A DNA stretch of 64,000 bases from Bacilli bacterium (GTDB lineage: Bacteria; Bacillota_I; Bacilli_A; RF39; UBA660). This document shows positions 1,023-58,062 of this stretch, in pieces. Position numbers and translations under genes: made by a program. The notes under the pieces were generated by a model. The model made no database searches. It saw nothing but the letters and a program-made list of their open reading frames with translations, and had not been told where the DNA came from. Within the stretch, counting starts at the first letter, position 1. Every line of letters starts with the position of its first letter. The DNA is taken from NCBI GenBank assembly GCA_017622175.1, contig JAGARQ010000038.1, positions 4,510-68,509 of the forward strand, read 5' to 3'.

Positions 1023-2130
1023 TTCCTAGTTTTACTTTTACAGTTTTTTCCTTTGAGTCTCTTATAAATGTAATTTCTACTACATCACCAGCTTGATGTT
1101 GATATAATTCATATCTTAAGTATGCATAATCTTTTACTTCTTTTCCAGCTAGTTTAGTAATAACATCACCTTTTTTAAGTCCTGCTTCTTTGGCACCAGA
1201 GCCATCTACTGCATTTATTACAACTACACCTTGTGTAATTTTTTCATCTAAAATTATTCTGTTTCTATATAGTAATGACGTATCTGTTACGTTGGCCATT
1301 TCGATTCCTAAAAGTGGCCATTCTATTGTTTTTCCAGCTTCTAATGTTTTAACATGACTCATGGCATATTCAATTGGAATTGCGAATCCCATTCCTTCTA
1401 TTTGGTCATCAACTAGTTTTAATGAGCAAATTCCGATAACTTCACCATTTACATTTAGTAATGGTCCACCACTGTTTCCAGGATTAATTGATGCATCTAA
1501 TTGTAATACTCTCATAACCCAGTCATTACTTGAGGTATTTGATACACTTACTGATACCATTCTATCTTTTCCAGATAGTATACCAGATGTAACACTTCCT
1601 CTATAGTCATACCCCATTGGTGCACCAACAGTAAATACTGTATCACCTAAGCGCATATCTTCACTTTTTCCAATATTAGAAATTAAAGTTACTTTTTCTC
1701 TAGCTATTTGGATTACTGCTAGGTCTAGATATTCATCTCCACCTAGTACTTTTCCATCTATTTCTTCATCATTTGACATAACTAAAGTTATTTTATCTCC
1801 ACCTGATACAACATGATTATTTGTTAATAAATAACCATATTTGTCATCAGCTCTATAAACAAAGGCTGTACCTGTTGAAATAACTTGATCTTGTTTATAT
1901 GTTCTTACTAAGGCAGTTGCATCATATATTTTTTCTACTGATGCAGCTAAAGAACCTTTTTCATATACTTGTGTTTCGTTTTTTGTTACTATTGTTCCTC
2001 CACCTGTTGTACCAATAACTTCACTTATAATTGGTGTCCATTTAAGTAATGCAAACATTACTACTCCACCTATTACAAAGGAGAAAGTAACAATAAATAT
2101 CATTTTTAAAGTATCTTGTTTTTTTCTCAT
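1009..2130 (-). CDS. htrA: HtrA/DegP-family serine protease, N-terminal TM anchor and C-terminal PDZ domain
   Basis: Trypsin-like triad contexts TNNHVV, DLAV and GNSGGPL. PDZ-like tail GLKKGDVITKLAGKEV. RBS AAGGAG lies inside the upstream gene. Confidence 0.9.
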   Translation of the reverse strand: MRKKQDTLKMIFIVTFSFVIGGVVMFALLKWTPIISEVIGTTGGGTIVTKNETQVYEKGSLAASVEKIYDATALVRTYKQDQVISTGTAFVYRADDKYGYLLTNNHVVSGGDKITLVMSNDEEIDGKVLGGDEYLDLAVIQIAREKVTLISNIGKSEDMRLGDTVFTVGAPMGYDYRGSVTSGILSGKDRMVSVSVSNTSSNDWVMRVLQLDASINPGNSGGPLLNVNGEVIGICSLKLVDDQIEGMGFAIPIEYAMSHVKTLEAGKTIEWPLLGIEMANVTDTSLLYRNRIILDEKITQGVVVINAVDGSGAKEAGLKKGDVITKLAGKEVKDYAYLRYELYQHQAGDVVEITFIRDSKEKTVKVKLGKSSE

Positions 2131-3077
2131 TCGAGATCCGAACTCCTTTCAATTCTTGCTAGTTCTTTCCAGTTTGATGGGAACCCCATACGATTAAATA
2201 CTTTTTCTATCTTTATAGTATGTAAATTATAATTTAGTGTCTGAATGATATTTTCTAATTCCATTGTCATGTTTTTAAATTCTTCTGTTTGAAGCATTTG
2301 TTTCATAATAATTACTAATGCAAATAAATCATGTTTACCATAAATATATTCTCCTTCTTGTTTTGGAATATCTAATATTTTATGATAAATTGTATCATCA
2401 ATGGCTTTTTGAGTTTTATTTTCAAATAATATATCTTCATGAGCACATAAGTTACGATAGTTTGCTAATATAGGTAAGTATGTTTGGAAATCATCTGGTT
2501 CAATTCCGTATGTTCTAGCAATATCTCTTTGGTCTTCAGCTTTTAATACTGAGTACATTTCACTAACAATACCAAATGATAAGACTTTAACTAAGATCCA
2601 TAAAGGAATATATCCATAATTAGATACATAGTGTAGTGTCGCAGTATGTTGTGAACCATTAACACGAATTTGTCTTTTCATCTTTTTTAATAAATCATTT
2701 AGTTGGCGTTGCTTATCTGGATGTTGTGTAAAGTTTTTGGGTTTTAAGTAATCACGTTCACGATATCCATATTTTTTAGATAATTGATATGATGTTATTG
2801 ATTTTAAGTTATTTTCAATTACTAATAAATACTTAAATAAGACATTTCTAATTGATCTATCAAATAGGAAAAGACTATATAGTTCTTCAAATGTTGTTCC
2901 ATCTAGGTAGTCATTATCTTCTCTTCTTTTCATAAATAAATGACGATATCCATTTAAAAAGAAATAATTTTCACGTAAAAGTACTATTTTTGCGTACTCT
3001 TCATCATTGATAATCATACCTCTATGTTTTAAGATTTCGATTTGTTCATCTAAGTTTTTAAATTGTTTCCCTATCAT
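2127..3077 (-). CDS. Abi_2 (AbiD/AbiF-like) abortive-infection family protein
   Basis: Family pattern EQIEILKHRGMII..., NYFFLNGYRHLF, LFDRSIRN, IPLWILVKVLSFG, YRNLCAHED. ATG 3077 follows AGGTGAG. The TGA stop overlaps the htrA ATG (ATGA). Confidence 0.8.
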   Translation of the reverse strand: MIGKQFKNLDEQIEILKHRGMIINDEEYAKIVLLRENYFFLNGYRHLFMKRREDNDYLDGTTFEELYSLFLFDRSIRNVLFKYLLVIENNLKSITSYQLSKKYGYRERDYLKPKNFTQHPDKQRQLNDLLKKMKRQIRVNGSQHTATLHYVSNYGYIPLWILVKVLSFGIVSEMYSVLKAEDQRDIARTYGIEPDDFQTYLPILANYRNLCAHEDILFENKTQKAIDDTIYHKILDIPKQEGEYIYGKHDLFALVIIMKQMLQTEEFKNMTMELENIIQTLNYNLHTIKIEKVFNRMGFPSNWKELARIERSSDLE

Positions 3078-3214
3078 TATTCTCACCTAGTATAAATTAT
3101 ATCATACTATTTAGAGAAAAAGTATGAAAAATTATGTGTTTTTTATGGTATAATTTAATTACCTCTTTTTTGAGGTTATAATGAGTATTAATATGTTACG
3201 AGGGAGGTAGTTTA

Positions 3215-4241: not shown

Positions 4242-5312
4242 ATGTTTTATAAATATGAGATTAAAAATAATGGTGTTGAAGATATTTTATACTTATACTT
4301 ATCTATGAGTTTTGAGTTTTCTAGGGAATTAGTTCTTAATTCTAAGGATGATGATTTATGTAGAAGAACTAAGAATTTTATTAGAAATAATAATATTAAT
4401 TATAATGGTAGAAAAGTTTATTTAGTTATAGATGGTATTGTTGTTAAGACTTTGGATATTGCTAAAGAAAGCAATCCCATTGAGATTTTAAAAGATAGTC
4501 TTTATTATTCTAATGAACATTTTTTGGTTAATACTAAATTACAAGATGATAGTATTATTGAACTTCCATTAAAAGAATATTTACTTGGTGTTTTAGCTAA
4601 TAATACAATGATTGGTCTTGATATTGAGGTTATAAAAGCTGTTTGTATTTTATATAGAACTTATGCATTTCTTATGATGAAGAAAAATAAGGTTATTGAT
4701 ATTACTAATAGTTTTGCTTTATACAAGCCTATTTCATATTTTAAGTTAGTATGGACTACTGGATATGATGATATATTAGAATTACTTAATAAAGCAATCA
4801 AAGAGACTGATTGTCTCTTTGTAACTTATAACGAAGAGTATATTTTACCATTTATACATTATTCTAATACTGGTAGAACTTTTTATAATAGAGAGTATGA
4901 ATATCTAAGCTCTGTTAAAAGTTTATGGGATTTAGAATCTCCTTACTACGTTGATGTTAAAACTTATAATTATGATGATTTAAGTAATTTATTAGGGTTT
5001 AATATTTCTGTTAATTCTAAATTTAATATTATTGATGTTGATAGTAGAGATTATGTTAGAAAATTAAGTATTGATGATAAAATATTCTCTTCTGAAGAAT
5101 TTAAAAGTTTATTTGGATTAAAGTCTATGAATATTAATATTATTGTTAATAAAGATGAGTTAAAGATCATTAGCAAGGGTTATGGCAATGGTTATGGTCT
5201 TAGTTTATATGGAGCTAATGAAATGGCTATTAATGGCTGTAGTTTTGCTAATATTTTGAAGTATTACTTTCCTAAAATTAGTATTAATAAATATATAAAA
5301 GAACTTTCGTAA
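4242..5312 (+). CDS. SpoIID/LytB-domain protein (atypical)
   Basis: LKEYLLGVLANNTM...IKAVCILYRTYAF and C-terminal GYGNGYGLSLYGANEMA...ILKYYFP match the SpoIID domain pattern. ATG 4242 follows AGGTGAT. Confidence 0.7.
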   Translation: MFYKYEIKNNGVEDILYLYLSMSFEFSRELVLNSKDDDLCRRTKNFIRNNNINYNGRKVYLVIDGIVVKTLDIAKESNPIEILKDSLYYSNEHFLVNTKLQDDSIIELPLKEYLLGVLANNTMIGLDIEVIKAVCILYRTYAFLMMKKNKVIDITNSFALYKPISYFKLVWTTGYDDILELLNKAIKETDCLFVTYNEEYILPFIHYSNTGRTFYNREYEYLSSVKSLWDLESPYYVDVKTYNYDDLSNLLGFNISVNSKFNIIDVDSRDYVRKLSIDDKIFSSEEFKSLFGLKSMNINIIVNKDELKIISKGYGNGYGLSLYGANEMAINGCSFANILKYYFPKISINKYIKELS

Positions 5313-5335
5313 TGAAAGTTCTTTATTTATTTTAT
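5297..5335. terminator. Bidirectional terminator between the spoIID-like gene and the essC operon
   Basis: Perfect inverted repeat aaagaactttc/gaaagttcttt, with A-run and T-run flanks. Confidence 0.7.
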
Positions 5336-5545
5336 TTTTGATTTTAATGGTTTTAGTACGGCATCAGCATCTTTGTAAATATCTACTGTTGATTTTAAAA
5401 ATGTTGAATACCAATCTACGTTAGAGATAAATGTTTGTAGCATTCCAGCATCTTGCTTTTTAGCAAGTTTATCAACTACATCAGCATTTTCTGCTAATTC
5501 TTTAGCAAATTGAAGTATTTCTTCATATGTAAATTTTCCTATCAT
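5327..5545 (-). CDS. Small helical protein, last gene of essC operon (possible T7SS substrate or chaperone)
   Basis: 72 aa with no TM. Its start overlaps the upstream ORF stop (ATGA). No WXG motif is recognisable. Confidence 0.55.
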   Translation of the reverse strand: MIGKFTYEEILQFAKELAENADVVDKLAKKQDAGMLQTFISNVDWYSTFLKSTVDIYKDADAVLKPLKSKIK

Positions 5546-5802
5546 TCTTCAATTGCCCCCGTTTCCTCATCATCATCTTCTAAGGTAAGGTCTGCAGCAG
5601 GTGCTGGTGTTTGTGCAGGTGCTGGAGTAGATTTTGGAGCTTGTGTATTAAATAGTTTAGCTGCTTCTACAACGGTTGTTTTTGACTCTTCAATACTATC
5701 TGCTATGTTTATATTATCTTGGTCTTTCCAACCAGCTTTTATTTTGGCAGTTATTTCATATATTTTATTAACAGCCATAACAAATTGATTATAATCAGAC
5801 AT
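5542..5802 (-). CDS. Small protein with helical N-terminus, Pro/Ala-rich linker and acidic tail (possible T7SS substrate)
   Basis: 86 aa, begins 9 nt after yukD. KAGWKDQD is not a canonical WXG. C-terminus is PAPAQTPAPAADLTLEDDDEETGAIEE. Confidence 0.55.
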   Translation of the reverse strand: MSDYNQFVMAVNKIYEITAKIKAGWKDQDNINIADSIEESKTTVVEAAKLFNTQAPKSTPAPAQTPAPAADLTLEDDDEETGAIEE

Positions 5803-5811
5803 AGTTACCTC

Positions 5812-6069
5812 CTATATTAAGATTATTCTTGAACCATTTTTTAAATCAGTTTCTCTAACATTTTTATTTACATCATATATTTGACCTGTTTCCTTACTAT
5901 AGAAATTAGTGTCTAATTTCATTTCGTAAGCTCCTTCGGTTATTTCTACTAAAGCTTGTTCAATTAATTTTTTGATTGTTCCTATTCTTTTATTTATAGG
6001 AATATATAAATCATATGATTTTTCAATTAGTGGAATTTCTAGTTCTATTAATATTTTATTTTTATTCAT
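5812..6069 (-). CDS. esaB: YukD/EsaB ubiquitin-like type VII secretion protein
   Basis: 85 aa with a beta-grasp-like pattern ending LKNGSRIILI. It starts 11 nt downstream of the essC stop. Confidence 0.75.
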   Translation of the reverse strand: MNKNKILIELEIPLIEKSYDLYIPINKRIGTIKKLIEQALVEITEGAYEMKLDTNFYSKETGQIYDVNKNVRETDLKNGSRIILI

Positions 6070-6080
6070 ATTACTATCTC

Positions 6081-9000
6081 CTATTCATTTGAAATAAATT
6101 TAATTAAAGTAGCTTTACCTTTCTTAATAACATAACCGAATTTTGGATCAATCTCAGCACGAAGTGTTCTGGCATTTGTTGTAACTTTAAGAGTGAATTG
6201 GTTAGCAATACCATTTCCAATCCAGATTCCTGCTGATAGGTCAATACTTGCTTTGTACCAAGCTTCATAACTGATTGATTTAATTTGATCAATAGTTTCT
6301 ACCATAATAAAGCGAATTGTTCCTAATGAACTTGAATTTTGTATTGCTAAAGTAAAGTTTCCTTTTTCTAGAGCTGTCATTTTTTGGAATAATGAGTTTA
6401 GTCCAACAATCATACACACTACTTCGTCAGGAGTATTATTTGCTTTTTTAGCATTACATATATCAATTACTTTAGTTACTACATCTTTACATGTACCACT
6501 ACCATATGTAATTGTTTCTTCTGCAAATGTTGTTCCATTTAACGCATTTGCTGCATCCAAGATAATACATTGTGTATTTGGAACTTTAACAACTGCTCTA
6601 GCAATTCCATGTAGGAATCCAGGAAGAGATGTAACATCTTCTCCAGTAATGTTGTAAATGTAAGAGTCTTTTAAGTTGATTGTTGCAATCTCTAAAGATT
6701 CTTTTTCTACTCCTACTGGGATTGTTCTTAAGTTTCCAAGTACTTCTGCAACTTCTTCTTGACCAATTGTTTCTGGTAATATTGGTACTTTCTTAGCTTT
6801 GTAAGTACAAATTTCTGCTAATTTTGTACAGATTATTCTAATATAATCTGACATTTTTTCTTCCTTGTATGGATATGCTGTTTGGAATTCATAAATTGCG
6901 TCTAGTGCAATCATACCACGACCAAATACTTTTGAAGGTTCTTTCTTTCTAACTCCTGGAAGAACACTTGCATAGTCTGATGGGTCATTGAATTGTAATA
7001 CAACATTTTGACGGAAGTTTTGTCTAATACGATATCTTACTGTATTTGGACCATTTGTTGTGAACATAAATACTACTCCGTATTTTAAACAATCACGAGT
7101 AATTTGTCCTAAGATTTCTTCATAATCACCATAAGTTTCCATAAATGCTTCTACATTGTTGATTGCAACAATGATTAATGGAAGTTGTTTTCCTCCATGA
7201 TTAATATAGAAATCGAATGATCCATTGTAATCTACAAATAGACGTTTACGTTCTTCGATGATTTTTGTAATCATCTTAAATAAATTATCAATTTTTTCAT
7301 TATCTGCAGCAAGTAATACTTCTCCAACATGTGGTGCTTTTTTGAACATAGTCATTGTTTCTGCACCAAAGTCTAAGATGTAGAAGTTTACTTCTGATGA
7401 ATCATGAGTAGTTATTGTAGAATAAATAATACTTGTTAGCATTAATTCTTTTCCACTACCACCGGATCCAAAGATAATAGCATTTCCATCTCTTGAAAGC
7501 GGAAGTGTTAATAAGTGTTGTTGTTGGTTATCTGGGTCATCATATTCTCCGATAACTGGGTTAATATCATTTTTCTTAATTTGATAGTTATATTTTTTCT
7601 TTAATTCTTCAACATAAATTGTATCTGGAATCTTATCTAACCATAATTGTTCAATTTCAATGTTTTCAGCTTTTGCTTCATCAACTATGTATTGAATGAT
7701 ACTTGTGATTTCTTCTCCTTTTGCTTCTACAACAACATCATCTTGTTTTGTATCTAGGTTTTTAATTACGTTTCCAACATTATCAATAATGTTAATTGAT
7801 TGGTCAACTTTCTTTTTACGTTTTTCTGTTGGATAGTATTTAGCACCTGCCCATGCAGCTTGTCCCATTGCGAATAATTCGTTATAACCTACTTGTAAGT
7901 AGAAACGACCTGCTTCTTTTAAGTTGGCTGCGTCTGGTACTCTAATCATGTCGTTACTATCTGCTTTATCTTGAACTTTTAAACAAACACGGAATTTTGA
8001 GTTTGACCAAATTTGTTCATTAACTACTCCGGCTGGTTTTTGTGTTGCTAGGATTAAGTGAACTCCTAGGGAACGTCCGATACGGGCAGTTGAAATTAAT
8101 TGTTCCATGAATTCTGGTCTTTGCGCCTTTAATTCGGCGAACTCATCACTTATGATAAATAAATGTGAAATTGGTTTATCTACTAAACCTTTACGATATA
8201 ATCCTTGATATTTATAAATATCAATAGTACTTTCATTTAATTTATCTCTTGCTTCATTAAACATTCTTTGACGTTTACGAAGTTCTGATTGAATTGATGC
8301 TAAGGAACGGTTCATTTCATTTGTATCTAAGTTGGTAATTGTTCCTGCTAAGTGAGGAAGTTTCATTCCTGTTTCTCTGTTTTCAAAAGCTCCTGTTAAA
8401 CCTCCACCTTTATAGTCGATAAGTACGAATGATACTTCGTATGGATGGTAGTTAAGAGCCATTGACATAATGTAACTAATGATAAACTCTGATTTACCTG
8501 AACCTGTCATACCAGCGATAAGTCCGTGAGGTCCGTGGAATTTTTCATGTAAATCTAGTTTAAATAGTTCTCTTGTCTTATCTACTCCAACTGGTGCTTG
8601 TAATGACTTAGTTGGATCATTTTGTTTCCATCTATTTAAGATATTTAATTGTTCTACCATACCTACATTGTACATTTCTAGGAATGTAAGTGCATTTGGT
8701 AGAGATTGATTTTCTTTTGCAATATCAATAGGAATATTTGCTAAGATTTTACAACATTCAAACATATTTAGTGTTGGATCAAAATCTGCTAAGAATTCTT
8801 TTTGTTTATTTGAAACTAATTCGTTTTCAAATACCCCTGATTTCTTATCTCCAATACTTACGAATGTTTTACATTCATTTGGAATGTTAATTAATCTTGG
8901 ACTTACTACGATTAAACTGAAACCATAGTTAACATTTGATTCAGCAACGTCTTTAATAATTTCAATATCTCTAATACCTTTATAGTCGTCTGTAAAAATT

Positions 9001-10664
9001 ACGTAATATGGTTGATGATGTCTGTAGTCTAAACCACTTTGTTCCATCTTACCATTATTATCTTTAAACTTTCTTGCTTGGAAAGATTTTTCTAAAGTAA
9101 GTGATATTTCTTTTGCCTCGTCTAAGTTAGTGGCGAAGTATCTTGTACTCCTATCATTACTCCAAATATGTGGGGCTACTTTTAGATATTCCCAATATGG
9201 AGCATTCTTTTCATTTGTAAATACTACTAATTTTAAATCTTCATAACTATGGTAAGCTAACATTTGAAGAACTAAACCTTCAATAAATTGACGTTTGTTA
9301 GCAGATGTACCAATAATTGCTGAAATATTTTTTTGAACAAATGATAGTGATACAGGAACATTTTCAAGCATTCTTGATTCTGCTCCTAATTTGTATACTT
9401 CTTTTAATAATTCATCTGTTTCAAGTGAGAATCTTTCTTCTGGGAAACTTACATTACCAAATAATGGTGTTGTACCAATACCTAGTCTTAAGTCTAAGAA
9501 ATCTTCTTGGTCAATTTCTCTTTCCCATAGGTTTCTCTTTTTACCGTAAATAATATCTTTTGTCGCTGATAAAGGAAGATAGTTATCAATTAAAATTTGA
9601 CGTTGAATCTTCATTTCAGCTTGAATTTTTTCACGTTTTTGTTCTACGTATTCATTATATTTTTTCAAACGTTCTTTTTCACGTTTTTTACGTTGTCTTT
9701 TTTGATAGTTTTGAGACATTATTGGCCAAACTATCATTGTACACATCATTGCTCCTGATGTTAATAATGTTGATGCTACATCTTTAATATCAACGGAACC
9801 ATTGATTACGCTCATAAAAGCACTTAATCCAGTTGATAAAGACATCATAGCCATAGTCATCATTGGCCCCAAAGTATAAATTAGTGGAGTCTTATCTTCT
9901 GCTTCTTTTCCTGGAGGTGGATCAATTCCAATATTTACTTCTTCAATTCTTGTTTTGAATCTTGGTGCACGATAGAAGTAATCTTCTTCTTTAAAGAATT
10001 CTATACTTTCTTCATCTGGATTATCTTCAACAGTTTGTGTTTGTACAAGTGGTCTTTCAATATCAAATAATCCTCTATTAAAGTTAACATAGTTTCCAAT
10101 TGTATTAATTACAAGTGATTGGTCCATTACAATAATCTTTAGACCCATTATAAATATAATATCTCCATATTCAAGAGTTTGTGTTGTTACTGCTACGTTA
10201 TTTACGTATGTTCCATATTTACTATTTAAATCTTGAATAACCCATGTACCACCACTATATATTAATCTTGCTTGTTGTTGTGATACAAGTGGATATGCAT
10301 AGCTAATATGAGCATTAGCATCATTACCTATTATAATTTCACCTTGGGCTTTTAATCTAAGTTTAAGTGTTGTCTTCTCTGTACTTGGTGAACAATATAA
10401 AATAACGTATTCATTATCTGTATTAATTTTTAAAAAATATAAGCTATATTCTTGTAAAATGGCAGAATCAATTTCGTGATCTCCATTCATAATTTTTGTT
10501 TCGAAGTCACTTTTGATTTTCCATTGTCCATTATCTTCTTCTACGTTAATTAAGTTTCTTACATTACCGAGATAATCGTTGTCTGTGATCCAATAGTTTC
10601 CGGCAACTTTTGTTGGTAATGTAAAATTATATATTTTGCTTTTTTTAATCAATCTTACGATCAC
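6081..10664 (-). CDS. essC: EssC/YukB FtsK-SpoIIIE family type VII secretion ATPase
   Basis: N-terminal FHA-like region (GTWVIQDLNSKYGTYVNN), two TM helices, then P-loop domains (GMTGSGKSEF with SDEFAEL; GSGGSGKE). GTG start lies 6 nt after GGGGTGA. Confidence 0.92.
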   Translation of the reverse strand: MIVRLIKKSKIYNFTLPTKVAGNYWITDNDYLGNVRNLINVEEDNGQWKIKSDFETKIMNGDHEIDSAILQEYSLYFLKINTDNEYVILYCSPSTEKTTLKLRLKAQGEIIIGNDANAHISYAYPLVSQQQARLIYSGGTWVIQDLNSKYGTYVNNVAVTTQTLEYGDIIFIMGLKIIVMDQSLVINTIGNYVNFNRGLFDIERPLVQTQTVEDNPDEESIEFFKEEDYFYRAPRFKTRIEEVNIGIDPPPGKEAEDKTPLIYTLGPMMTMAMMSLSTGLSAFMSVINGSVDIKDVASTLLTSGAMMCTMIVWPIMSQNYQKRQRKKREKERLKKYNEYVEQKREKIQAEMKIQRQILIDNYLPLSATKDIIYGKKRNLWEREIDQEDFLDLRLGIGTTPLFGNVSFPEERFSLETDELLKEVYKLGAESRMLENVPVSLSFVQKNISAIIGTSANKRQFIEGLVLQMLAYHSYEDLKLVVFTNEKNAPYWEYLKVAPHIWSNDRSTRYFATNLDEAKEISLTLEKSFQARKFKDNNGKMEQSGLDYRHHQPYYVIFTDDYKGIRDIEIIKDVAESNVNYGFSLIVVSPRLINIPNECKTFVSIGDKKSGVFENELVSNKQKEFLADFDPTLNMFECCKILANIPIDIAKENQSLPNALTFLEMYNVGMVEQLNILNRWKQNDPTKSLQAPVGVDKTRELFKLDLHEKFHGPHGLIAGMTGSGKSEFIISYIMSMALNYHPYEVSFVLIDYKGGGLTGAFENRETGMKLPHLAGTITNLDTNEMNRSLASIQSELRKRQRMFNEARDKLNESTIDIYKYQGLYRKGLVDKPISHLFIISDEFAELKAQRPEFMEQLISTARIGRSLGVHLILATQKPAGVVNEQIWSNSKFRVCLKVQDKADSNDMIRVPDAANLKEAGRFYLQVGYNELFAMGQAAWAGAKYYPTEKRKKKVDQSINIIDNVGNVIKNLDTKQDDVVVEAKGEEITSIIQYIVDEAKAENIEIEQLWLDKIPDTIYVEELKKKYNYQIKKNDINPVIGEYDDPDNQQQHLLTLPLSRDGNAIIFGSGGSGKELMLTSIIYSTITTHDSSEVNFYILDFGAETMTMFKKAPHVGEVLLAADNEKIDNLFKMITKIIEERKRLFVDYNGSFDFYINHGGKQLPLIIVAINNVEAFMETYGDYEEILGQITRDCLKYGVVFMFTTNGPNTVRYRIRQNFRQNVVLQFNDPSDYASVLPGVRKKEPSKVFGRGMIALDAIYEFQTAYPYKEEKMSDYIRIICTKLAEICTYKAKKVPILPETIGQEEVAEVLGNLRTIPVGVEKESLEIATINLKDSYIYNITGEDVTSLPGFLHGIARAVVKVPNTQCIILDAANALNGTTFAEETITYGSGTCKDVVTKVIDICNAKKANNTPDEVVCMIVGLNSLFQKMTALEKGNFTLAIQNSSSLGTIRFIMVETIDQIKSISYEAWYKASIDLSAGIWIGNGIANQFTLKVTTNARTLRAEIDPKFGYVIKKGKATLIKFISNE

Positions 10665-10702
10665 TTAAGATCACCCCAGTTATTATTCCTATTCTATATG
10701 TA

Positions 10703-10731
10703 ATTATATATGTTTTTCAATTTTTTTACAA
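10703..10731 (-). promoter_or_regulatory. Sigma-A type promoter of essC operon (TTGTAA-17 nt-TATAAT)
   Basis: Hexamers read on the minus strand at 10726-10731 and 10703-10708. Confidence 0.6.
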
Positions 10732-10770: not shown

Positions 10771-11433
10771 TTATCTTTCAAGATATAATTTGTCTTGAGC
10801 CTCTAAATAAATACCATATAAATCCTTCTTAGGGCATATAAATATTAGTTTTTTATTATCTACTGGTATGTCCTGCTCTTGTTTTTCAGGATTATCTGGT
10901 TGTAGTGGTTCTTCTATATCTTTTTCTATTTTTTTAAAATTTATATTTGCTGAGTCAATTATAGTTATGGAATCATCTATCCATAGACATTCTTCTGGTT
11001 TCTTTTTATTATTAATTGAAAAAGAACCACCATTATTTTTGTACCATCCAGTTCCAGTAAATTTTCCTTTTCCACATTCTATATGGCAGTGATTTCCTGT
11101 TGTTTGTCCTTTTGTACCTTCTGTATAGAAAGGTTCATTCTGATTTATTCTTTTACCAACAAATAAATCACTTACATCGTTAGAGTGTGCAAACATTATA
11201 GTCATATAATCAATTGTTCCATCTGGATATTCTACTGGTTCAGTACTTTCAAGCCATACTTCGTTAGCGTCTTGAGGATATATTTTTTTAATTATACCAG
11301 TAAAAGGAGCGTTAATTGTAGAAATAGATGAATCAATGCTTGCCTCATCTATTGCATAACTATCTATGTGAGAACCTATATTGTATCCTTGAGTAATTCT
11401 CATATATTTACTGGGATATATTGGTTTTTCCAT
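10771..11433 (-). CDS. M23/LytM-family peptidoglycan peptidase, signal-less (endolysin-like)
   Basis: INAPFTGIIKKIY, MFAHSNDVS..VGKRINQNEPF and GQTTGNHCHIE match the M23 strand/HxH pattern. No signal peptide. RBS AGGAGG. The start lies inside the holin 3' end. Confidence 0.65.
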   Translation of the reverse strand: MEKPIYPSKYMRITQGYNIGSHIDSYAIDEASIDSSISTINAPFTGIIKKIYPQDANEVWLESTEPVEYPDGTIDYMTIMFAHSNDVSDLFVGKRINQNEPFYTEGTKGQTTGNHCHIECGKGKFTGTGWYKNNGGSFSINNKKKPEECLWIDDSITIIDSANINFKKIEKDIEEPLQPDNPEKQEQDIPVDNKKLIFICPKKDLYGIYLEAQDKLYLER

Positions 11434-11770
11434 TATTATCCTCCTTATTTATTATGTTTTCTTTGGAGATAGTGACTTTATTTCTATTTATTATTTCACC
11501 ATATGATTGAAGTTTTCCTTCTAATGTTTTGTATAGTGTATCTGCTCCTAGAAAAGAAAATAATCCCACCCATAAACTTGTTGGGAATGTAACGTTAGTA
11601 AATGACATACAAAATACAATGCCTATGGATAAATTTACTATTAATGAATATATTGGAATTAATTTTTGTGTTGGTAAATGTCTTTTTGTTTTTTGAATAA
11701 ACGTACACGTAAAAACACTTAGAGCTATGGAAACGACTAATAATTCTTGTAAATATTCTATTTTTAACAT
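11408..11770 (-). CDS. Phage holin, Listeria A118 Hol118-like family
   Basis: 120 aa with 3 hydrophobic segments and a charged tail. Aligns by eye with Hol118 (ELLV..F[VI]Q..KKT..P..S.LI..G...W.G...G..L[FY]...K.YGE). Overlaps the lysin gene by 26 nt. Confidence 0.7.
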   Translation of the reverse strand: MLKIEYLQELLVVSIALSVFTCTFIQKTKRHLPTQKLIPIYSLIVNLSIGIVFCMSFTNVTFPTSLWVGLFSFLGADTLYKTLEGKLQSYGEIINRNKVTISKENIINKEDNNGKTNISQ

Positions 11771-11794: not shown

Positions 11795-11818
11795 TGAAAA
11801 AAAGGACTTTTAGTCCTT
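11795..11818 (-). terminator. Intrinsic terminator after the 145-aa gene
   Basis: aaggac/gtcctt stem followed by a U-run on the minus RNA. It overlaps the stop codon. Confidence 0.6.
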
Positions 11819-12254
11819 ATTTTTTTGATATTGATAAAATGGTTATGACATTTATAATTGCAAATAATTTATCTGATGTTGAGATATTAATAGTCCATTT
11901 TTCAGGGTCATCTAATAAGTCATTTTTCATACTTACAATTATTTCTTCTTTTTCATTTTTTACAGCAAAGTCAGAATATGTAATATCTGATGAAATATGC
12001 CAATTCTTATTAATAAGAGTATATCCTTTTGGGGTTTTATTATCAGATGTTATTTCATCTACTAATGTTCCATTCATATATAACTTATATTTTTTCTTAG
12101 AGAATAAATTATATTTAACTTCTGCTAATTGTAACTCATTTTCATCATATATGTAATAATTAAATCCCTTGTGTTTACATATGTATAGAACTTTTTCATT
12201 TTTGTCTTTTATGATATATTTTCCTAATCCATCTTGAATTAATATTAAATCCAT
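11817..12254 (-). CDS. Hypothetical protein; weak resemblance to LURP-one/tubby-C-like (YxjI-type) fold
   Basis: 145 aa with an alternating beta-strand-like pattern. Own promoter TTGATT-18-TATACT and RBS AGGTGAT. Confidence 0.5.
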   Translation of the reverse strand: MDLILIQDGLGKYIIKDKNEKVLYICKHKGFNYYIYDENELQLAEVKYNLFSKKKYKLYMNGTLVDEITSDNKTPKGYTLINKNWHISSDITYSDFAVKNEKEEIIVSMKNDLLDDPEKWTINISTSDKLFAIINVITILSISKK

Positions 12255-12328
12255 ATAATCACCTACTATATTGAGTATAGCACTTGTTTTCTAGTGCAAT
12301 CAAATAAAAATAACATTGTTTATGTAAA

Positions 12329-12898
12329 CTAATTGTCTTGCTTTTTTCTAAATATAGATTTAATAAATTTCTTAACCCCTGTTTCTTTTTTAGGATTTTC
12401 TTTTATTTCCACAAGTTCTTCCGAACTTTCAGTAGTTGGACTTAGGACTAATTCAACTCCTTTAGGAAGTGGAAATGATAATTGTCCTCTTTTTAACATA
12501 ATTATGTCTCTAATCGTAAATATTTTAAAATCCATTAATTCTAAGTCCATTGTTACTTGTTCATATTGTTGTCTTCTATTTTCTACAGGCATAATATTAA
12601 ATTTATATATTTTTTCATTTTTAGCATCTCCAATACTTTGCCCTAATTCTATTAGTTGTTCTTCTGTTAGATCTTTAACTTCATTATAATCAACAATCCA
12701 GTCAATTCCTTTAAAAAACTCTATGTCTTCTGGCTTCGAAAATTCTATAAACTCATATCTATTACTATCATCTATTATTGTAATTCCTTTTCCAAAAACT
12801 TGCATAAAAATAGATGCAGGGATAGATAGTCCCGAACTATTTAAATATGCCATATCATTTTTTTGAACGTACATTTTATTATCCTTTAATATTTTCAT
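12329..12898 (-). CDS. Hypothetical protein
   Basis: 189 aa. RBS GAGGAGG and an extended -10 (TGATATAAT) upstream. No motif recognised. Confidence 0.6.
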   Translation of the reverse strand: MKILKDNKMYVQKNDMAYLNSSGLSIPASIFMQVFGKGITIIDDSNRYEFIEFSKPEDIEFFKGIDWIVDYNEVKDLTEEQLIELGQSIGDAKNEKIYKFNIMPVENRRQQYEQVTMDLELMDFKIFTIRDIIMLKRGQLSFPLPKGVELVLSPTTESSEELVEIKENPKKETGVKKFIKSIFRKKQDN

Positions 12899-12942
12899 AA
12901 TGAACCTCCTCTTTTATGTTCTATATTATATCATACTTTGTT

Positions 12943-14709
12943 TTATTTCTTATATATTTTCACAAGTTCCTGTTGAAATTCTTCTTTTGCTCTTGGATCT
13001 TGGGTATCCGATAGAAATGAATCTATAGTTCCATCTGTAAATAATGTGATATACCAGTCTTTATTACATATGGTTTGTTGTTCTTGATGTTTTGCCATTT
13101 CTTGATAAAATGTGAACCCTTCACTTGTTTGACTTCTTTGAAAGCGTAACGAGATTATTCTTTTTTCTATATCAGGATTAAAAGAGAATTTATTTGTTGC
13201 TAATACTAGTTCTCTTTTATCAAAATATCTTTTTTCTGGTATATATAATTTTATATCTGAAATGTTTTTTTCAGGAGCAGTATCTAACAAGCATTGATAA
13301 TTGGAAATACCATTGTAATAATTATTTCCATTTTCTAATATAGGGCTTACTAAAAATGGCAATATGTTGCTGTTATAGTTAGATACATTAGAGTTTGTTG
13401 CTCCTATGATTGTTGCTACTATTTCATCACCGTTTTTATTCATATAATCCATAATTTGTTTTAATATTGATTTTGTTAAATCATATAATTTTTTCCCTGT
13501 CAGTTCTGGTGGAACCCATTTACTCGTTTCTATTCCTTGAGCAATTATTGTGTTTCCATTTCTCATAAGTAGAACCATTGCATAATCTTTATATTCTTTA
13601 GTTGAAAAGCTTAATATGCGCATATGTTCGCTATCAAGAAATTGTGAGAAAAGAATTGATGCATCACCATTTATTCTAAAGCAGTTACCGGAACGGTATC
13701 CATGTGTTAGATTTCTTGGCTCACTTAATGATAGTAATTCCGGTATTATTTCATTTTGAGTTTTTAGTTCAATTTGTGGGATAGATGATTTATACTTATT
13801 TCTTAATTTTTTTGTATATGCTTTTGTATTTATTGCAATGACTTCATCTTCTTCTGTTTGTTGTGCAGCATATTTATGATAATAAGACGACAACATGTCT
13901 TCTCTTATTTCTCCTGTAATTTCAGGTGTTGTTGGATCTTGTGTTAAAAATCTTTCTTTTAATAATTGTTGTAGCGATTCTTGTTTGAACTTTGTACCAA
14001 TTTTATGAATAAAATATGGTAGATTATTATAAAAATAGTCAAAATTTATAAATAGTTCTATAAATTTTCCAGCTAGCATTTGTCTAATTGGATTATTAAA
14101 GTCTGTTTTGTTTCCAAATAAATAGTTTTTTAAAATGTCTTGTTCTGTCTCTGACATGTTGTTTAATTCTATTTTTTTTACAAAATAATGAAGTTGTTCA
14201 TAACTAACATTTCCATATTTTTGATTAATTAGTTCCAATGTATTTTCATAACCTAAACATGTATATAGTTTATATGCAACTTCTTGATATTCTTGTTCCT
14301 GGTATGTAGGTCTTCTTCTTAATTTCCATTGCAATTCTTCTTCTATTTTGATATCTAAAATATTTTTATCTTGTGGTAGATTATGTAATAGTTTAACTAT
14401 TTTATTAATTCTTTTCTTGGGAATCTGAAAGTATGTTTGTGGTGAAAGATATTGTTCTATTTCTGTTGTTGATTCGTTATTATTTTTTAAAGCACTTATT
14501 AATTTGTATATATTACCTTTCATTATTGTTTTCAATATACTTTTTTTGTTTAATTTTTGTAAAACTAATTCATAAAATTCTATTGGCATATTATTTATTC
14601 CGTAAAATGACTCAATAAAATTCTCCATTCTCTTAGTTGATGGACTTTTCTTTATCTGTAATAGTTCTTTTAAACATTTTAGTTTTTCTATTATTGTTTT
14701 TTCTTTCAT
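12943..14709 (-). CDS. Hypothetical protein (588 aa, soluble)
   Basis: Long uninterrupted ORF. Promoter TTGAAA-17-TATTAT and RBS GGGGAA. No motif recognised. Confidence 0.65.
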   Translation of the reverse strand: MKEKTIIEKLKCLKELLQIKKSPSTKRMENFIESFYGINNMPIEFYELVLQKLNKKSILKTIMKGNIYKLISALKNNNESTTEIEQYLSPQTYFQIPKKRINKIVKLLHNLPQDKNILDIKIEEELQWKLRRRPTYQEQEYQEVAYKLYTCLGYENTLELINQKYGNVSYEQLHYFVKKIELNNMSETEQDILKNYLFGNKTDFNNPIRQMLAGKFIELFINFDYFYNNLPYFIHKIGTKFKQESLQQLLKERFLTQDPTTPEITGEIREDMLSSYYHKYAAQQTEEDEVIAINTKAYTKKLRNKYKSSIPQIELKTQNEIIPELLSLSEPRNLTHGYRSGNCFRINGDASILFSQFLDSEHMRILSFSTKEYKDYAMVLLMRNGNTIIAQGIETSKWVPPELTGKKLYDLTKSILKQIMDYMNKNGDEIVATIIGATNSNVSNYNSNILPFLVSPILENGNNYYNGISNYQCLLDTAPEKNISDIKLYIPEKRYFDKRELVLATNKFSFNPDIEKRIISLRFQRSQTSEGFTFYQEMAKHQEQQTICNKDWYITLFTDGTIDSFLSDTQDPRAKEEFQQELVKIYKK

Positions 14710-15845: not shown

Positions 15846-16214
15846 TTACTTTTTTGTATATGGTTGTTTTGCGTCTCCTAATTCTGGATATTCGCTAGTT
15901 TCAAAATCAACTTGTTTTTCATCTAACATTGCAGATAATTCTGCTAATTTGTCATCACTTAATGATTCAACATAAGCTTGTGCATTATGAACATTTTTTA
16001 AGGTATTATTTAAACTTTGTTGTTGAAATCCATAAGTTGCTGTTGTAGCAGATGAACAAATTGTTGTTCCTAATGTCGATCTCTTTTTATCTACTAGAAT
16101 TGCTGTTTTATTTCCTTTTTCATCTGTCTCATATCTTACTGCTGTTTTTGCTGTTAATCCTGTTGCTCCTACAACTGTTGCTGTTTCACATAAAATTGTT
16201 GTTGATTGTATCAT
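15846..16214 (-). CDS. Small protein with two TTI-x-C motifs and a conserved acidic helical C-terminus (paralog of 17052-17393)
   Basis: ATG 16214 lies about 10 nt after GGGAGGG and 1 nt after the upstream gene stop. STTILCETATVVG and GTTICSSATTATYG, then AQAYVESLSDDKLAELSAMLDEK. Confidence 0.65.
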   Translation of the reverse strand: MIQSTTILCETATVVGATGLTAKTAVRYETDEKGNKTAILVDKKRSTLGTTICSSATTATYGFQQQSLNNTLKNVHNAQAYVESLSDDKLAELSAMLDEKQVDFETSEYPELGDAKQPYTKK

Positions 16215-16215
16215 A

Positions 16216-16986
16216 TTATTTTTTCCCTCCCGAACCTTTTGTATCAGTATCTTGTACTGACGATTGTCTATTTGCACCTAGTGTTACTTGAACTAGTTTT
16301 CTTAATTGTTCTAACTCTTCTTTGGTTTGTATGCTATCGATTACTTGCGTTAATGTTGGTATATCTTCTGTTTTTTCCATACTTCTACTTATTACTGCAC
16401 CAGCTTCAGAATATTGTTCAACATTTTTCTTGGTTCTTCTTTCTTCCAATTTTTTCATTGTTTCTTCTCGCATTTTATAACGATAGATATTACAGTTTTG
16501 AATGTTTACACATTGAAAGTTTATAAACGATGAACCTACTTCTAAAGCAAGGAATGGTATAACTACTGTTGGCCATATACCAAAGGCCGCAGCTATAGTT
16601 AATCCAGTAATCGCAATTGCATTCTTTATTAAGCCCTTCATATGTATATCTTTATTCCAATTTAAATAGTGTAATATTTCTGTTGGCTTATTTGGATCTA
16701 TATGATAATTTCGATTTTCTTCTCTATTAAATTCTTTTCTCATTAACATTTTTTGTCTACGATAGTGATCTATTATATGTTTTCTTTCTTCTGGTGTCTT
16801 TGCATTTTTCAGTTCTTTTTTTCTTTTTCGATCACAAATTTTATCATACCACTCAATGTATTTTGGAATAAATTTTTTTATAAATTTGTACTTTAACTCT
16901 TCTACTTTAAAAACTACTTTTTGGAACTTATTAGCTCCTAGTTTTTCGCAGAGTTTAATTTTCTTTTTATAATCAACTGCTTCCAT
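16216..16986 (-). CDS. Membrane protein with central 2-TM hairpin; weak resemblance to CrtO-like acyltransferase family
   Basis: Basic N-terminal region and a hydrophobic core GLIKNAIAITGLTIAAAFGIWPTVVIPFLALEVG. INFQCVNIQNCNIYRYK faintly resembles the QRYNR motif. Confidence 0.55.
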   Translation of the reverse strand: MEAVDYKKKIKLCEKLGANKFQKVVFKVEELKYKFIKKFIPKYIEWYDKICDRKRKKELKNAKTPEERKHIIDHYRRQKMLMRKEFNREENRNYHIDPNKPTEILHYLNWNKDIHMKGLIKNAIAITGLTIAAAFGIWPTVVIPFLALEVGSSFINFQCVNIQNCNIYRYKMREETMKKLEERRTKKNVEQYSEAGAVISRSMEKTEDIPTLTQVIDSIQTKEELEQLRKLVQVTLGANRQSSVQDTDTKGSGGKK

Positions 16987-17032
16987 AACCGATTCCCCTA
17001 TTCTCTTTGAACGGCTATTATTATACCATATA

Positions 17033-17061
17033 ACACAAAAAAAAGCAACTATTACTGTTGC
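17033..17061 (-). terminator. Intrinsic terminator after the 113-aa gene
   Basis: gcaac/gttgc stem followed by a run of 8 U on the minus RNA. The stop codon sits in the loop. Confidence 0.55.
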
Positions 17062-57970: not shown

Positions 57971-58037
57971 ATTATCACCTGTTTTAATTCTATCATTTAT
58001 AATTTCCAATGACAATGTGACTTTGTAAATGAGAATG

Positions 58038-58062
58038 TAAAAAAAAGACAGAATACTGTCTT
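58038..58062 (-). terminator. Intrinsic terminator after the acyltransferase gene
   Basis: aagacag/ctgtctt stem followed by a run of U on the minus RNA. Confidence 0.7.

What the first reader, a model, noticed from the sequence alone, without database searches (positions are those of the whole stretch)
5327..10731. Stripped-down type VIIb-like secretion operon: essC, yukD/esaB and two small ORFs, with no other core components nearby
A self-contained transcription unit runs from the promoter TTGTAA-17-TATAAT (10703-10731) to a bidirectional terminator (5297-5335). It encodes a full-length EssC/YukB ATPase (FHA-like N-terminus, 2 TM helices, FtsK/SpoIIIE P-loop domains), then a ubiquitin-like YukD/EsaB, then two translationally coupled small proteins. 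Canonical Firmicutes T7SSb loci (S. aureus ess, B. subtilis yuk) place EsaA/YueB, EssA, EssB/YukC and a WXG100 substrate next to essC. None of these is recognisable in either flank. Upstream lies a holin/lysin pair and orphan genes. Downstream lies a convergent spoIID-like gene. This is either a split apparatus or a reduced EssC-driven export system with different partners.
Basis: partly seen in the sequence, partly recalled or inferred. Interest (0 to 1): 0.7.

Follow-up and report, generated by a model that had tools for sequence, protein, structure and literature searches.

The report
Minimal four-gene type VII secretion operon
A small-genome gut bacterium (order RF39) carries a conserved four-gene operon with a type VII secretion motor, its ubiquitin-like helper and two tiny helical proteins, and none of the usual membrane partners lie nearby, so it may be the simplest natural version of this export machine.

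Summary
On the minus strand, 5327-10731 contains a promoter, essC (1527 aa), an 85-aa gene, translationally coupled 86-aa and 72-aa genes, and a hairpin terminator.

- **EssC:** it passes NCBI's EssC equivalog cut-off.
- **85-aa protein:** its model is a ubiquitin-like beta-grasp, but it matches no YukD sequence model.
- **72-aa protein:** its model is a confident helical hairpin, and its best fold matches are WXG100 proteins, at non-significant E-values.
- **86-aa protein:** it aligns weakly to Listeria EsxA at the WXG tryptophan and has a conserved acidic C-terminal tail.
- **Family membership:** neither small protein meets WXG100 criteria by sequence.

The four-gene unit is intact in all 67 complete related loci examined. 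Relatives occur in 309 species-level genomes. The -35 and -10 boxes are invariant in an 11-species alignment. The small genes are under purifying selection.

No EssB, EsaA or EssA was found in the window or within about 10 kb of essC in 34 related genomes. Whole genomes could not be searched, so a split apparatus is not excluded.

This is best read as a new, minimal variant beside the published T7SSb-j series.

The parts
10703..10731 (-). Dedicated sigma-70-type promoter, TTGTAA-17 nt-TATAAT
   Evidence: The consensus scan finds it. Both hexamers and the spacing are invariant in an 11-species alignment in which sequence further upstream is unalignable and the upstream gene differs.
10665..10702 (-). 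Conserved 5' leader with Shine-Dalgarno GGGGTGA, 7 nt before the GTG start
6081..10664 (-). essC: T7SSb-type membrane ATPase, 1527 aa
   Evidence: NCBIfam TIGR03928 scores 1020.7 bits, above the 778.4 cut-off, and Pfam finds FHA and FtsK_SpoIIIE. The best PDB sequence match is B. subtilis YukB, E 5e-120. The ORF is intact in all 67 complete related loci.
10095..10664 (-). EssC N-terminal tandem FHA-like region, residues 1-190
   Evidence: Pfam FHA covers residues 110-170. The phosphothreonine-binding residues are replaced (GN for GR, SxxQ for SxxH, SKYG for SxNG), and these replacements are conserved in the clade. FHA1 is 78-99% identical across RF39-clade relatives (23-41% in the distant L026/L029/L031 EssCs).
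9705..9899 (-). EssC membrane segment with two predicted TM helices, residues about 256-320
   Evidence: Read from the sequence. This region is 49-62% identical in the relatives with about 70% overall EssC identity.
7860..8684 (-). EssC ATPase domain D1, with canonical Walker A GMTGSGKS and Walker B LFIISDEF
   Evidence: It is 88-100% identical across RF39-clade relatives and still 75-77% in the distant L026/L029/L031 EssCs.
6084..6884 (-). EssC C-terminal domain D3, with a degenerate P-loop; the most divergent domain and the candidate substrate-recognition module
   Evidence: It is only 43-58% identical in the relatives with about 70% overall EssC identity. That parallels p86 and p72 at 33-57%.
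5812..6069 (-). p85: ubiquitin-like (YukD/EsaB-like) protein, 85 aa, with no C-terminal Gly-Gly
   Evidence: The AF2 model has pLDDT 77.6 and a beta-grasp topology. Foldseek matches include the bacterial Ubl 8tyx (E 6e-5) and the EccD5 Ubl domain 7npt_D8. hhalign places the YDLxIP motif in register with Listeria and B. mycoides EsaB. dN/dS is 0.05-0.2. It is present in 67 of 67 loci.
5542..5802 (-). p86: small helical protein with a conserved Trp at the predicted turn, a variable Pro/Thr/Ala linker and a conserved acidic C-terminal EE(L/V/T)G tail; proposed signal-bearing member of the pair
   Evidence: Alignments are. hhalign to Listeria EsxA aligns W25 with the W of WXG. The score is 18.4 against 9.7 +/- 2.0 for 100 shuffles. 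dN/dS is 0.06-0.14 in close pairs. It is present in 67 of 67 loci. No structure model was made.
5327..5545 (-). p72: helix-turn-helix hairpin protein with invariant N-terminal MI(G)xxxY and a C-terminal DAD-x-x-L motif conserved in nearly all members; translationally coupled to p86 (ATGA overlap)
   Evidence: The AF2 model has pLDDT 91.3 with helices 7-31 and 35-71. Top Foldseek matches are mostly WXG100 proteins (B. anthracis EsxB, TMq about 0.7), but at E 0.4-1. hhalign to the WXG100-like second gene of L029 scores 22.0 against 10.3 +/- 2.4 for shuffles. It is present in 63 of 67 loci by BLAST and in the other 4 by inspection.
5298..5324 (.). Bidirectional terminator hairpin with an 11-12 bp stem, shared with the convergent spoIID-like gene
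10771..11770 (-). Neighbours, not shown to belong to the system: holin-like p120 (11408-11770) and endolysin-like p220 (10771-11433)
   Evidence: PHROG holin E 1.2e-6 and endolysin E 2e-9. p120 is present near essC in 38 and p220 in 34 of 67 loci, and both are absent in the closest relative L021.

Best explanation
This is a functional, much-reduced type VII secretion module of an uncultured RF39-order gut bacterium. It is transcribed from its own promoter as essC-p85-p86-p72.

The proposed mechanism is inferred by analogy with T7SSb and T7SSa, not shown here:
- EssC oligomerises in the membrane through its two TM helices and stalk, and forms the channel and motor.
- The ubiquitin-like p85 is clamped between the EssC FHA region and the domain after the TM helices, as YukD is in B. 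subtilis YukB, and stabilises the assembly.
- p86 and p72 form a WXG100-like heterodimeric four-helix bundle.
- The conserved acidic C-terminal tail of p86 docks on the divergent C-terminal ATPase domain D3.
- The pair is exported, alone or as a co-factor for unlinked cargo.

No EssB, EsaA or EssA-type partner is encoded with the operon, so EssC may be the only dedicated membrane component.
For: **Shown here**
- EssC is a T7SSb-type EssC. It is above the TIGR03928 cut-off, B. subtilis YukB is the best PDB match, and it is about 32% identical to Listeria and B. mycoides EssC. D1 Walker A and B are invariant, and D2 and D3 are degenerate.
- The p85 model is a beta-grasp. Its Foldseek matches include the ESX-5 EccD Ubl domain, and it shares the YDLxIP motif in register with EsaB.
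- The p72 model is a high-confidence hairpin whose best structural neighbours are Esx proteins.
- p86 aligns to EsxA at the W turn above the shuffle control.
- In the distant relative L029 the order is yukD-like, then a WXG100 hit (E 0.0028), then a second WXG100 hit (E 7e-4), next to essC. That matches the p85-p86-p72 order.
- The four-gene unit is present in 67 of 67 complete loci, and relatives occur in 309 species-level genomes.
- The promoter is conserved, and the small genes are under purifying selection.
- D3 diverges in step with p86 and p72, whereas FHA1 and D1 stay conserved along with p85.
- No EssB, EsaA or EssA is found by Pfam or NCBIfam, tblastn, or HMM with filters off, in the window plus 34 loci.

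**From the literature**
- YukD sits between the YukB FHA and DUF domains (PMC12637312).
- WXG100 C-terminal tails contact EccC and EssC ATPase domains, and T7SS variants c to j are not reported with EsaA, EssA or EssB (PMC11217815).
Against: - p85, p86 and p72 match no Pfam, NCBIfam or PDB sequence profile at meaningful E-values.
- Neither small protein has a WXG motif.
- The Foldseek E-values for the p72 hairpin are 0.4-1, and short hairpins match many things.
- p86 was not modelled.
- No p86-p72 or p86-EssC interaction was computed.
- The correlation between D3 and the small proteins could be plain phylogeny.
- The rest of each genome (about 1.4-1.8 Mb) was not searched, so other components may exist elsewhere.
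- There are no expression or secretion data.
Confidence: 0.65

Rival explanations
1. Split apparatus. The operon is only the cytoplasmic and ATPase half of a fuller T7SS. Membrane and wall-spanning partners, either EssB/EsaA/EssA-like or lineage-specific ones like TsxD-L, are encoded elsewhere in the genome.
For: - In B. subtilis the EssC FHA2 domain and the adjoining linker are the EssB docking site (PMC12637312). This EssC keeps both FHA domains under constraint: FHA1 is 78-99% and FHA2 64-96% identical across RF39-clade relatives.
- Most RF39 species are predicted to have a peptidoglycan wall that must be crossed (PMC10868615).
- Only about 20 kb around essC per genome was inspected.
Against: - In all characterised T7SS variants the core genes cluster with essC (PMC11217815).
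- None is present within about 10 kb in 34 genomes, nor in three more distant lineages.
- FHA2 and the linker are less conserved than FHA1 and D1.
- Genome reduction in this lineage makes loss plausible.
Confidence: 0.3
2. p86 and p72 are not the cargo. They are cytoplasmic targeting adaptors, like the Lap proteins of LXG toxins, or an EsxA-like machine co-factor. The real effectors are encoded at unlinked loci.
For: - Small WXG100-related helical proteins often serve as co-secretion partners (PMC11217815).
- Two of 37 extended p72-family members weakly hit DUF5344 (E 0.036). My recollection that DUF5344 is a family of small helical proteins linked to LXG toxins was not checked here.
- No toxin, immunity or LXG gene lies in the locus.
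Against: - The pair is invariant in position and translationally coupled to the core genes, like tsxA genes rather than like variable Lap and toxin cassettes.
- No candidate effector was seen in about 100 loci.
Confidence: 0.25
3. Wall crossing is provided by neighbouring peptidoglycan hydrolases rather than by an EsaA-type conduit. Candidates are the holin/endolysin pair, Amidase_3 and the SpoIID-like gene. I recall that the hydrolase EssH supports secretion in S. aureus, but that point was not checked here.
For: A cell-wall hydrolase gene lies near essC in most lineages examined:
- p220 with a holin-like gene, or Amidase_3, immediately upstream in the RF39 clade.
- Two NlpC/P60 genes in L031.
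- A glucosaminidase-like gene in L029.
- A convergent SpoIID-like gene in most loci.
Against: - The association is not universal. L021, L007 and L022 lack the holin/lysin pair and Amidase_3 upstream.
- The hydrolase genes lie outside the conserved promoter-to-terminator unit.
- Synteny in one lineage is weak evidence.
Confidence: 0.15
4. The module is a relic, or has a non-secretory role such as a sporulation-linked function, and exports nothing.
For: - It sits next to a spoIID-like gene.
- RF39 is predicted to sporulate in an atypical way (PMC10868615).
- The canonical partners are absent.
Against: - A 4.6-kb ORF is intact in 67 of 67 loci, with invariant catalytic motifs and a conserved promoter.
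- The small genes have low dN/dS.
- The EssC architecture is specific to T7SS.
Confidence: 0.05

Closest known systems
T7SSb (S. aureus Ess, B. subtilis Yuk/Yue, Listeria)
   Same: - EssC has tandem FHA-like domains without phosphothreonine-binding residues, two TM helices and three P-loop domains.
- It is above the TIGR03928 cut-off, and YukB is the best PDB match.
- A free-standing ubiquitin-like protein without Gly-Gly is encoded beside essC.
- Small helical hairpin proteins are encoded in the operon.
   Different: - No EssB/YukC, EsaA/YueB or EssA is found in the locus in about 100 genomes.
- There is a non-identical pair of hairpin proteins instead of one homodimeric EsxA, and both lack the WXG motif and any Pfam WXG100 match.
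- The gene order is essC-B-A-A, not esxA-esaA-essA-esaB-essB-essC.
- There is no LXG toxin or immunity region.
T7SSg of Acetivibrio and Paenibacillus (Garrett, Higginson and Palmer 2024, PMC11217815), the simplest published variant
   Same: The core is reduced to two non-identical WXG100-type proteins, a ubiquitin-like TsxB and the ATPase TsxC.
   Different: - TsgC lacks FHA domains, whereas this EssC has them.
- T7SSg has a fifth component, TsgL (a DUF5050 beta-propeller), and always sits next to Tad pilus genes. Neither is present here.
- The host lineage differs: RF39 MAGs.
T7SSf and T7SSj of Clostridia (same paper)
   Same: The ATPase carries FHA domains and, according to the paper, clusters phylogenetically near T7SSb. 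TsxA and TsxB are present.
   Different: These variants carry a PPM phosphatase, a DUF6382-FHA protein, an AAA+ ATPase or a Ser/Thr kinase, and a large Ig-like wall protein. None was found among the neighbouring ORFs scanned here (not every ORF within 10 kb was scanned). The pThr-binding motif is not conserved here.
Mycobacterial EsxA/EsxB (ESAT-6/CFP-10) heterodimer
   Same: Two adjacent, co-translated, non-identical hairpin genes. One (p86) has a flexible C-terminal tail ending in a conserved motif, like the CFP-10 tail that binds EccC. In the window's own subgroup, p72 carries Y-x-x-x-D (YKDAD).
   Different: There is no detectable sequence homology. The Tyr of YxxxD is Asn or Ser in most relatives. 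The proteins are shorter, at 65-104 and 69-75 aa.

Membership tests
T7SSb core apparatus | EssC-type ATPase with FHA domains, two TM helices and three FtsK-like P-loop domains | tested here: met
   TIGR03928 scores 1020.7 bits against a 778.4 cut-off, and Pfam finds FHA and FtsK_SpoIIIE. YukB matches at E 5e-120.
T7SSb core apparatus | EssB/YukC pseudokinase membrane protein encoded with essC | tested here: not met
   There is no Pfam or NCBIfam hit among neighbours. There is no tblastn hit. A 13-sequence EssB HMM run with --max over six-frame translations of the window plus 34 loci gives a best E of 0.37. Whole genomes could not be tested.
T7SSb core apparatus | EsaA/YueB and EssA encoded with essC | tested here: not met
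   The same searches give a best E of 0.44 for EsaA and 1.3 for EssA. Whole genomes could not be tested.
T7SSb core apparatus | EsxA, a WXG100 protein above the Pfam threshold | tested here: not met
   PF06013 is not hit by p86 or p72. Per-member scans find it in 3 of 31 p72 members (best E 0.057), 0 of 28 p86 members, and not among the 25 most frequently matched families for the 37 extended p72-family members.
YukD/EsaB (PF08817) ubiquitin-like T7SS proteins | Beta-grasp fold of about 80 aa | tested here: met
   The AF2 model has strands, a helix and further strands in beta-grasp order, with pLDDT 77.6. Foldseek gives TM 0.6-0.7 to ubiquitin-likes and to the EccD5 Ubl domain.
YukD/EsaB (PF08817) ubiquitin-like T7SS proteins | No C-terminal Gly-Gly, and encoded beside essC | tested here: met
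   The protein ends ...GSRIILI. It starts 11 nt after essC, and this holds in 67 of 67 loci.
YukD/EsaB (PF08817) ubiquitin-like T7SS proteins | Sequence match to the family model | tested here: not met
   There is no Pfam or NCBIfam hit at E <= 0.1, and no PDB profile hit. The only signal is a short in-register YDLxIP match to EsaB, E 0.01-0.02.
WXG100 superfamily | Helix-turn-helix hairpin of about 100 aa | tested here: met
   This is met for p72, whose model has pLDDT 91.3 and two helices, although it is only 72 aa. p86 was not modelled.
WXG100 superfamily | W-x-G motif in the turn | tested here: not met
   p72 and its extended family have no Trp at the turn. p86 has a nearly invariant Trp, but it is followed by x-x-D-N and not x-G.
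WXG100 superfamily | Genetic linkage to an EssC/EccC ATPase | tested here: met
   Both genes are in the essC operon in every locus.
WXG100 superfamily | Dimerisation into a four-helix bundle and T7SS-dependent secretion | not testable with these tools
   No multimer prediction or experiment was available.
T7SSg (Garrett et al. 2024) | TsgC without FHA domains, TsgL DUF5050 beta-propeller, adjacent Tad pilus genes | tested here: not met
   FHA is present. No DUF5050 or Tad genes were found among the window ORFs and related-locus neighbours that were scanned.

The most novel reading that the evidence does not exclude
A naturally self-sufficient four-protein type VII secretion system. EssC would be the only dedicated membrane component, serving as channel and motor. 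A ubiquitin-like clamp (p85) would assist it, and a new family pair of WXG100-like hairpins (p86 and p72) would act as substrate or co-factor. The module is conserved in hundreds of gut RF39 species, including human-associated CAG-877-type organisms.
Probability: 0.4. Interest if true: 0.75.

Novelty: new variant of a known kind. Interest (0 to 1): 0.55.

Why it matters
Which proteins form the T7SS translocation channel, and which accessory proteins are really required, are still open questions. The B. subtilis core could not be captured as a hexamer (PMC12637312).

A conserved natural system reduced to EssC, a YukD-like protein and two hairpin proteins would be a compact test bed. Four genes, about 5.4 kb in total, could be moved into a heterologous host to ask whether EssC alone can export a WXG100-like pair.

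It would also extend the published T7SSb-j catalogue into uncultured, genome-reduced Bacilli that are common in human and animal guts. It defines two new small-protein families, p86 and p72, that current profile libraries miss, so T7SS substrates in these organisms go unannotated.

Tried and rejected
1. Sequence-level assignment of p85, p86 and p72 gave nothing meaningful. I tried Pfam, NCBIfam and PHROGs on single sequences, profile searches against PDB, and per-member Pfam scans of the families.
2. hhalign of p72 against Listeria EsxA, and of p86 against the first WXG-like gene of L029, did not beat shuffles (20 of 100 and 10 of 100 shuffles reached the real score). hhalign of p86 against p72 showed no similarity.
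3. An exhaustive HMM search of 1.84 billion representatives with the p72 profile found 91 clusters. All are the same MIG...Y...NKDAD-type family with longer loops, and none bridges to classical WXG100.
4. A genome-collection scan with an EssB alignment returned only Listeria, Bacillus, Terribacillus and Fictibacillus. It is uninformative for RF39 because it relies on near-exact conserved peptides.
5. I considered that the variable region between rpsI and essC might hold toxin and immunity genes or missing core genes. It holds a ZIP transporter, Amidase_3, PHP, GNAT, radical-SAM, metallo-beta-lactamase-fold and ATP-grasp genes. The p588-p189-p145 island has no family hits and occurs only in the closest relatives.
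6. I considered read-through from the holin/lysin genes as the only source of transcription. I rejected this because the essC promoter is conserved whatever gene lies upstream.
7. A literature search found no paper on T7SS in RF39 or Mycoplasmatota-like Bacilli.


Full report
**What is in the sequence**

On the minus strand the region holds four tightly packed ORFs:
- essC, 6081-10664, 1527 aa
- p85, 5812-6069
- p86, 5542-5802
- p72, 5327-5545

The gaps between them are 11 and 9 nt, and p86 and p72 share a 4-nt ATGA overlap. essC starts at a GTG that follows GGGGTGA. A 12-bp-stem hairpin at 5298-5324 lies between p72 and the convergent spoIID-like gene.

The promoter-like site TTGTAA-17-TATAAT at 10731-10703 is found by the scan. 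Such matches are not above chance in this AT-rich DNA: 41 were found against 47 expected. I therefore aligned the 150 nt upstream of essC from 11 species. Both hexamers, their spacing, the leader and the ribosome-binding site are invariant or nearly so. Everything further upstream is unalignable, and the upstream gene differs between species. The operon therefore has its own conserved promoter.

**Organism and distribution**

The window is about 29% G+C and otherwise holds ribosomal-protein and housekeeping genes. Identical EssC proteins occur on two metagenome contigs.

A genome-collection scan with EssC found 34 loci in uncultured 'Bacilli', 'Tenericutes' and 'Mycoplasmatota' gut MAGs, including Candidatus Faecimonas intestinavium. 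GTDB places that genus in order RF39, family CAG-611. It has a genome of about 1.4 Mb and 28% G+C (PMC8035907).

A second scan used the lineage-specific N-terminal domain. It found relatives in 309 species-level genomes, and the best 80 were fetched. Of these, 67 contain a complete essC ORF. All 67 have p85 and p86. p72 is found in 63 by BLAST, and the other four have a 70-aa ORF of the same architecture in the same place.

The proteins are abundant in metagenomes. The p85 family has 2950 clusters at 90% identity, the p72 family 627 and the p86 family 387.

**EssC**

- It scores 1020.7 bits on NCBIfam TIGR03928 (EssC, Firmicutes type; cut-off 778.4). It has Pfam FHA and FtsK_SpoIIIE domains.
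- Its best solved relative is B. subtilis YukB, E 5e-120. It is about 32% identical to Listeria and B. mycoides EssC.
- D1 has canonical Walker A (GMTGSGKS) and Walker B (LFIISDEF) motifs that are invariant across the clade.
- D2 keeps the P-loop lysine but has degenerate catalytic positions. D3 has no P-loop.
- The FHA phosphothreonine-binding residues are replaced (GN, SxxQ, SKYG), and the replacements are conserved. Canonical T7SSb EssC is like this too, unlike the kinase-associated variants (PMC11217815).

**p85**

No sequence model recognises it. An AF2 model built from 37 homologues (pLDDT 77.6) has beta-grasp topology. Foldseek finds ubiquitin-like proteins at E 6e-5 to 1e-3 with TM 0.6-0.7. 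These include a bacterial Ubl and the ubiquitin-like domain of EccD5 in the ESX-5 complex. Profile alignment to annotated EsaB of Listeria and B. mycoides matches a YDLxIP motif in the same register, though only at E 0.01-0.02. The protein ends in RIILI, with no Gly-Gly. It is the best-conserved small gene, at 62-100% identity in the RF39 clade (73-100% in the first 34 loci), with dN/dS 0.05-0.2.

**p86 and p72**

Both are real genes. dN/dS is 0.06-0.25 in close comparisons, and the architecture is conserved.

p72:
- Its model is a confident helix-turn-helix hairpin, pLDDT 91.3.
- Its top PDB neighbours are mostly WXG100 proteins: B. anthracis EsxB at TMq about 0.7, then S. aureus EsxA, GBS1074 and Geobacillus EsxA. 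The E-values are only 0.4-1.
- It has an N-terminal MI(G)xxxY motif that is invariant in the close family alignments, and a C-terminal DADxxL motif conserved in nearly all members. In the exhaustive search these motifs extend, with substitutions, to 91 clusters at 50% identity.

p86:
- It has a nearly invariant Trp at the predicted turn.
- It then has a linker of variable length rich in Pro, Thr and Ala.
- It ends in a conserved acidic tail, EE(L/V/T)G.
- hhalign aligns its Trp to the W of WXG in Listeria EsxA. The score is 18.4 against 9.7 +/- 2.0 for 100 shuffles.

The p72 family aligns to the second WXG100-like gene of the distant relative L029, scoring 22.0 against 10.3 +/- 2.4. In L029 the order is yukD-like, WXG100 (Pfam E 0.0028), WXG100 (E 7e-4), DUF4176, then essC. 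That is the same B-A-A order as here.

By sequence, however, neither protein is a WXG100 member. There is no WXG motif and no Pfam match, even across the families. I therefore call them WXG100-like in fold and context, and new families by sequence.

**What is missing**

No EssB, EsaA, EssA, LXG or DUF4176 gene is found in the 64-kb window.

Using annotated Listeria and B. mycoides T7SSb loci as references, I ran two further searches. One was tblastn. The other used HMMs with filters off, including a 13-sequence EssB model, over six-frame translations of the window plus 34 loci. Both found nothing better than E 0.37.

The segment between rpsI and essC varies between species. It holds a holin-like and an endolysin-like gene, Amidase_3, a ZIP transporter, PHP, GNAT, radical-SAM and other genes.

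More distant relatives, at 40-46% EssC identity, also lack the canonical partners within 10 kb. This includes a lineage with tandem essC genes, two yukD-like genes and eight small helical genes.

Whole genomes could not be searched with the tools available. The one attempt, a pattern-based EssB scan, could only find close relatives of Listeria and Bacillus EssB.

**Domain-wise conservation**

The table gives identity to the window's EssC or small protein in the relatives with about 70% overall EssC identity.

| Region or protein | Identity |
|---|---|
| EssC D1 | 88-91% |
| EssC FHA1 | 78-89% |
| EssC FHA2 | 64-73% |
| EssC TM region | 49-62% |
| EssC D3 | 43-58% |
| p85 | 73-84% |
| p86 | 33-57% |
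| p72 | 33-47% |

This fits what is known. YukD contacts the FHA, DUF and D1 hairpin regions of YukB (PMC12637312). The C-terminal ATPase domain recognises the substrate tail and varies with the substrate set (PMC11217815). Shared phylogeny alone could also produce this pattern, so it is consistent with the model but not proof.

**Most likely mechanism**

The steps below are inferred by analogy:
1. EssC oligomers form the membrane channel and motor.
2. p85 locks the FHA region against the post-TM domain.
3. p86 and p72 pair as a four-helix bundle.
4. The p86 tail engages D3 and triggers ATPase-driven export.

Most RF39 species are predicted to keep a peptidoglycan wall (PMC10868615). Something must therefore allow passage through it. 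Hydrolase genes recur near essC in most lineages examined, which is a lead, but the association is not universal.

**Comparison with what is known, and novelty**

Garrett, Higginson and Palmer (PMC11217815) showed that T7SS loci come in at least ten arrangements. All have TsxC, nearly all have TsxA and TsxB, and variants c to j are not reported with EsaA, EssA or EssB. Each of those variants still has at least one further conserved component. The simplest, T7SSg, has a beta-propeller protein, an FHA-less ATPase and adjacent Tad genes.

The locus here has a T7SSb-type, FHA-bearing EssC. Beyond the ubiquitin-like protein and a pair of divergent hairpin proteins, it has no further conserved component. 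It occurs in MAG lineages that were outside that RefSeq-based survey. I found no paper describing it.

It is therefore a new variant of a known kind. The claim that it is truly self-sufficient remains a hypothesis, which I put at about 40%.

Noticed in passing
window 15846-17393 (minus strand): Three unannotated genes sit between truA and rplM: p113, p256 (two TM helices) and p143. They are conserved in most relatives. p113 and p143 share a C-terminal motif AQxYVES(M/L)SxxEL...L(E/D)EK and have Thr/Ser/Cys-rich N-terminal halves. No Pfam, NCBIfam, PHROG or PADLOC hits.
   Followed up: partly
window 11817-14709 (minus strand): The p588-p189-p145 island lies between rpsI and the holin-like gene. 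It is found only in the closest relatives (L021, partly L005). It has no family hits in any library, and a terminator-like hairpin follows it at 11802-11818.
   Followed up: partly
window 10771-11770; L035 8134-8817; L031 5884-9274; L029 21599-22774: Cell-wall hydrolase genes recur next to essC in different lineages. They include a chromosomal holin-like plus endolysin-like pair with no prophage context, Amidase_3, two NlpC/P60 genes and a glucosaminidase-like gene, plus the convergent SpoIID-like gene. They may help export across the wall, but this was not tested statistically.
   Followed up: partly
window 2127-3086 (minus strand): An AbiD/Abi_2 abortive-infection-type gene (PADLOC AbiD, E 9.5e-63) overlaps the start of htrA. 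It is 72-97% identical in nearly all relatives (65% in the most divergent locus, L114) at the same position. That is unusually stable for a defence gene.
   Followed up: no
L029 7241-20658 and L026 440-11998: Distant relatives from rabbit-gut Bacilli MAGs carry tandem essC paralogues. L029 also has two yukD-like genes, a DUF4176 gene and eight genes of about 85-107 aa for helical proteins, four of which weakly hit WXG100. This is a richer T7SS locus that still lacks EssB, EsaA and EssA.
   Followed up: partly
window 10665-10702 and alignment A9: The essC 5' leader (ACATATAGAATAGGAATA...) is conserved beyond the promoter and the ribosome-binding site in the closer relatives. It might be a regulatory site. 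It was not searched against RNA families.
   Followed up: no
window 56426-59341 (minus strand): Two adjacent large ORFs of 529 and 426 aa have no family assignment. The 426-aa protein has only a faint Condensation-domain hit, E 0.0038.
   Followed up: no
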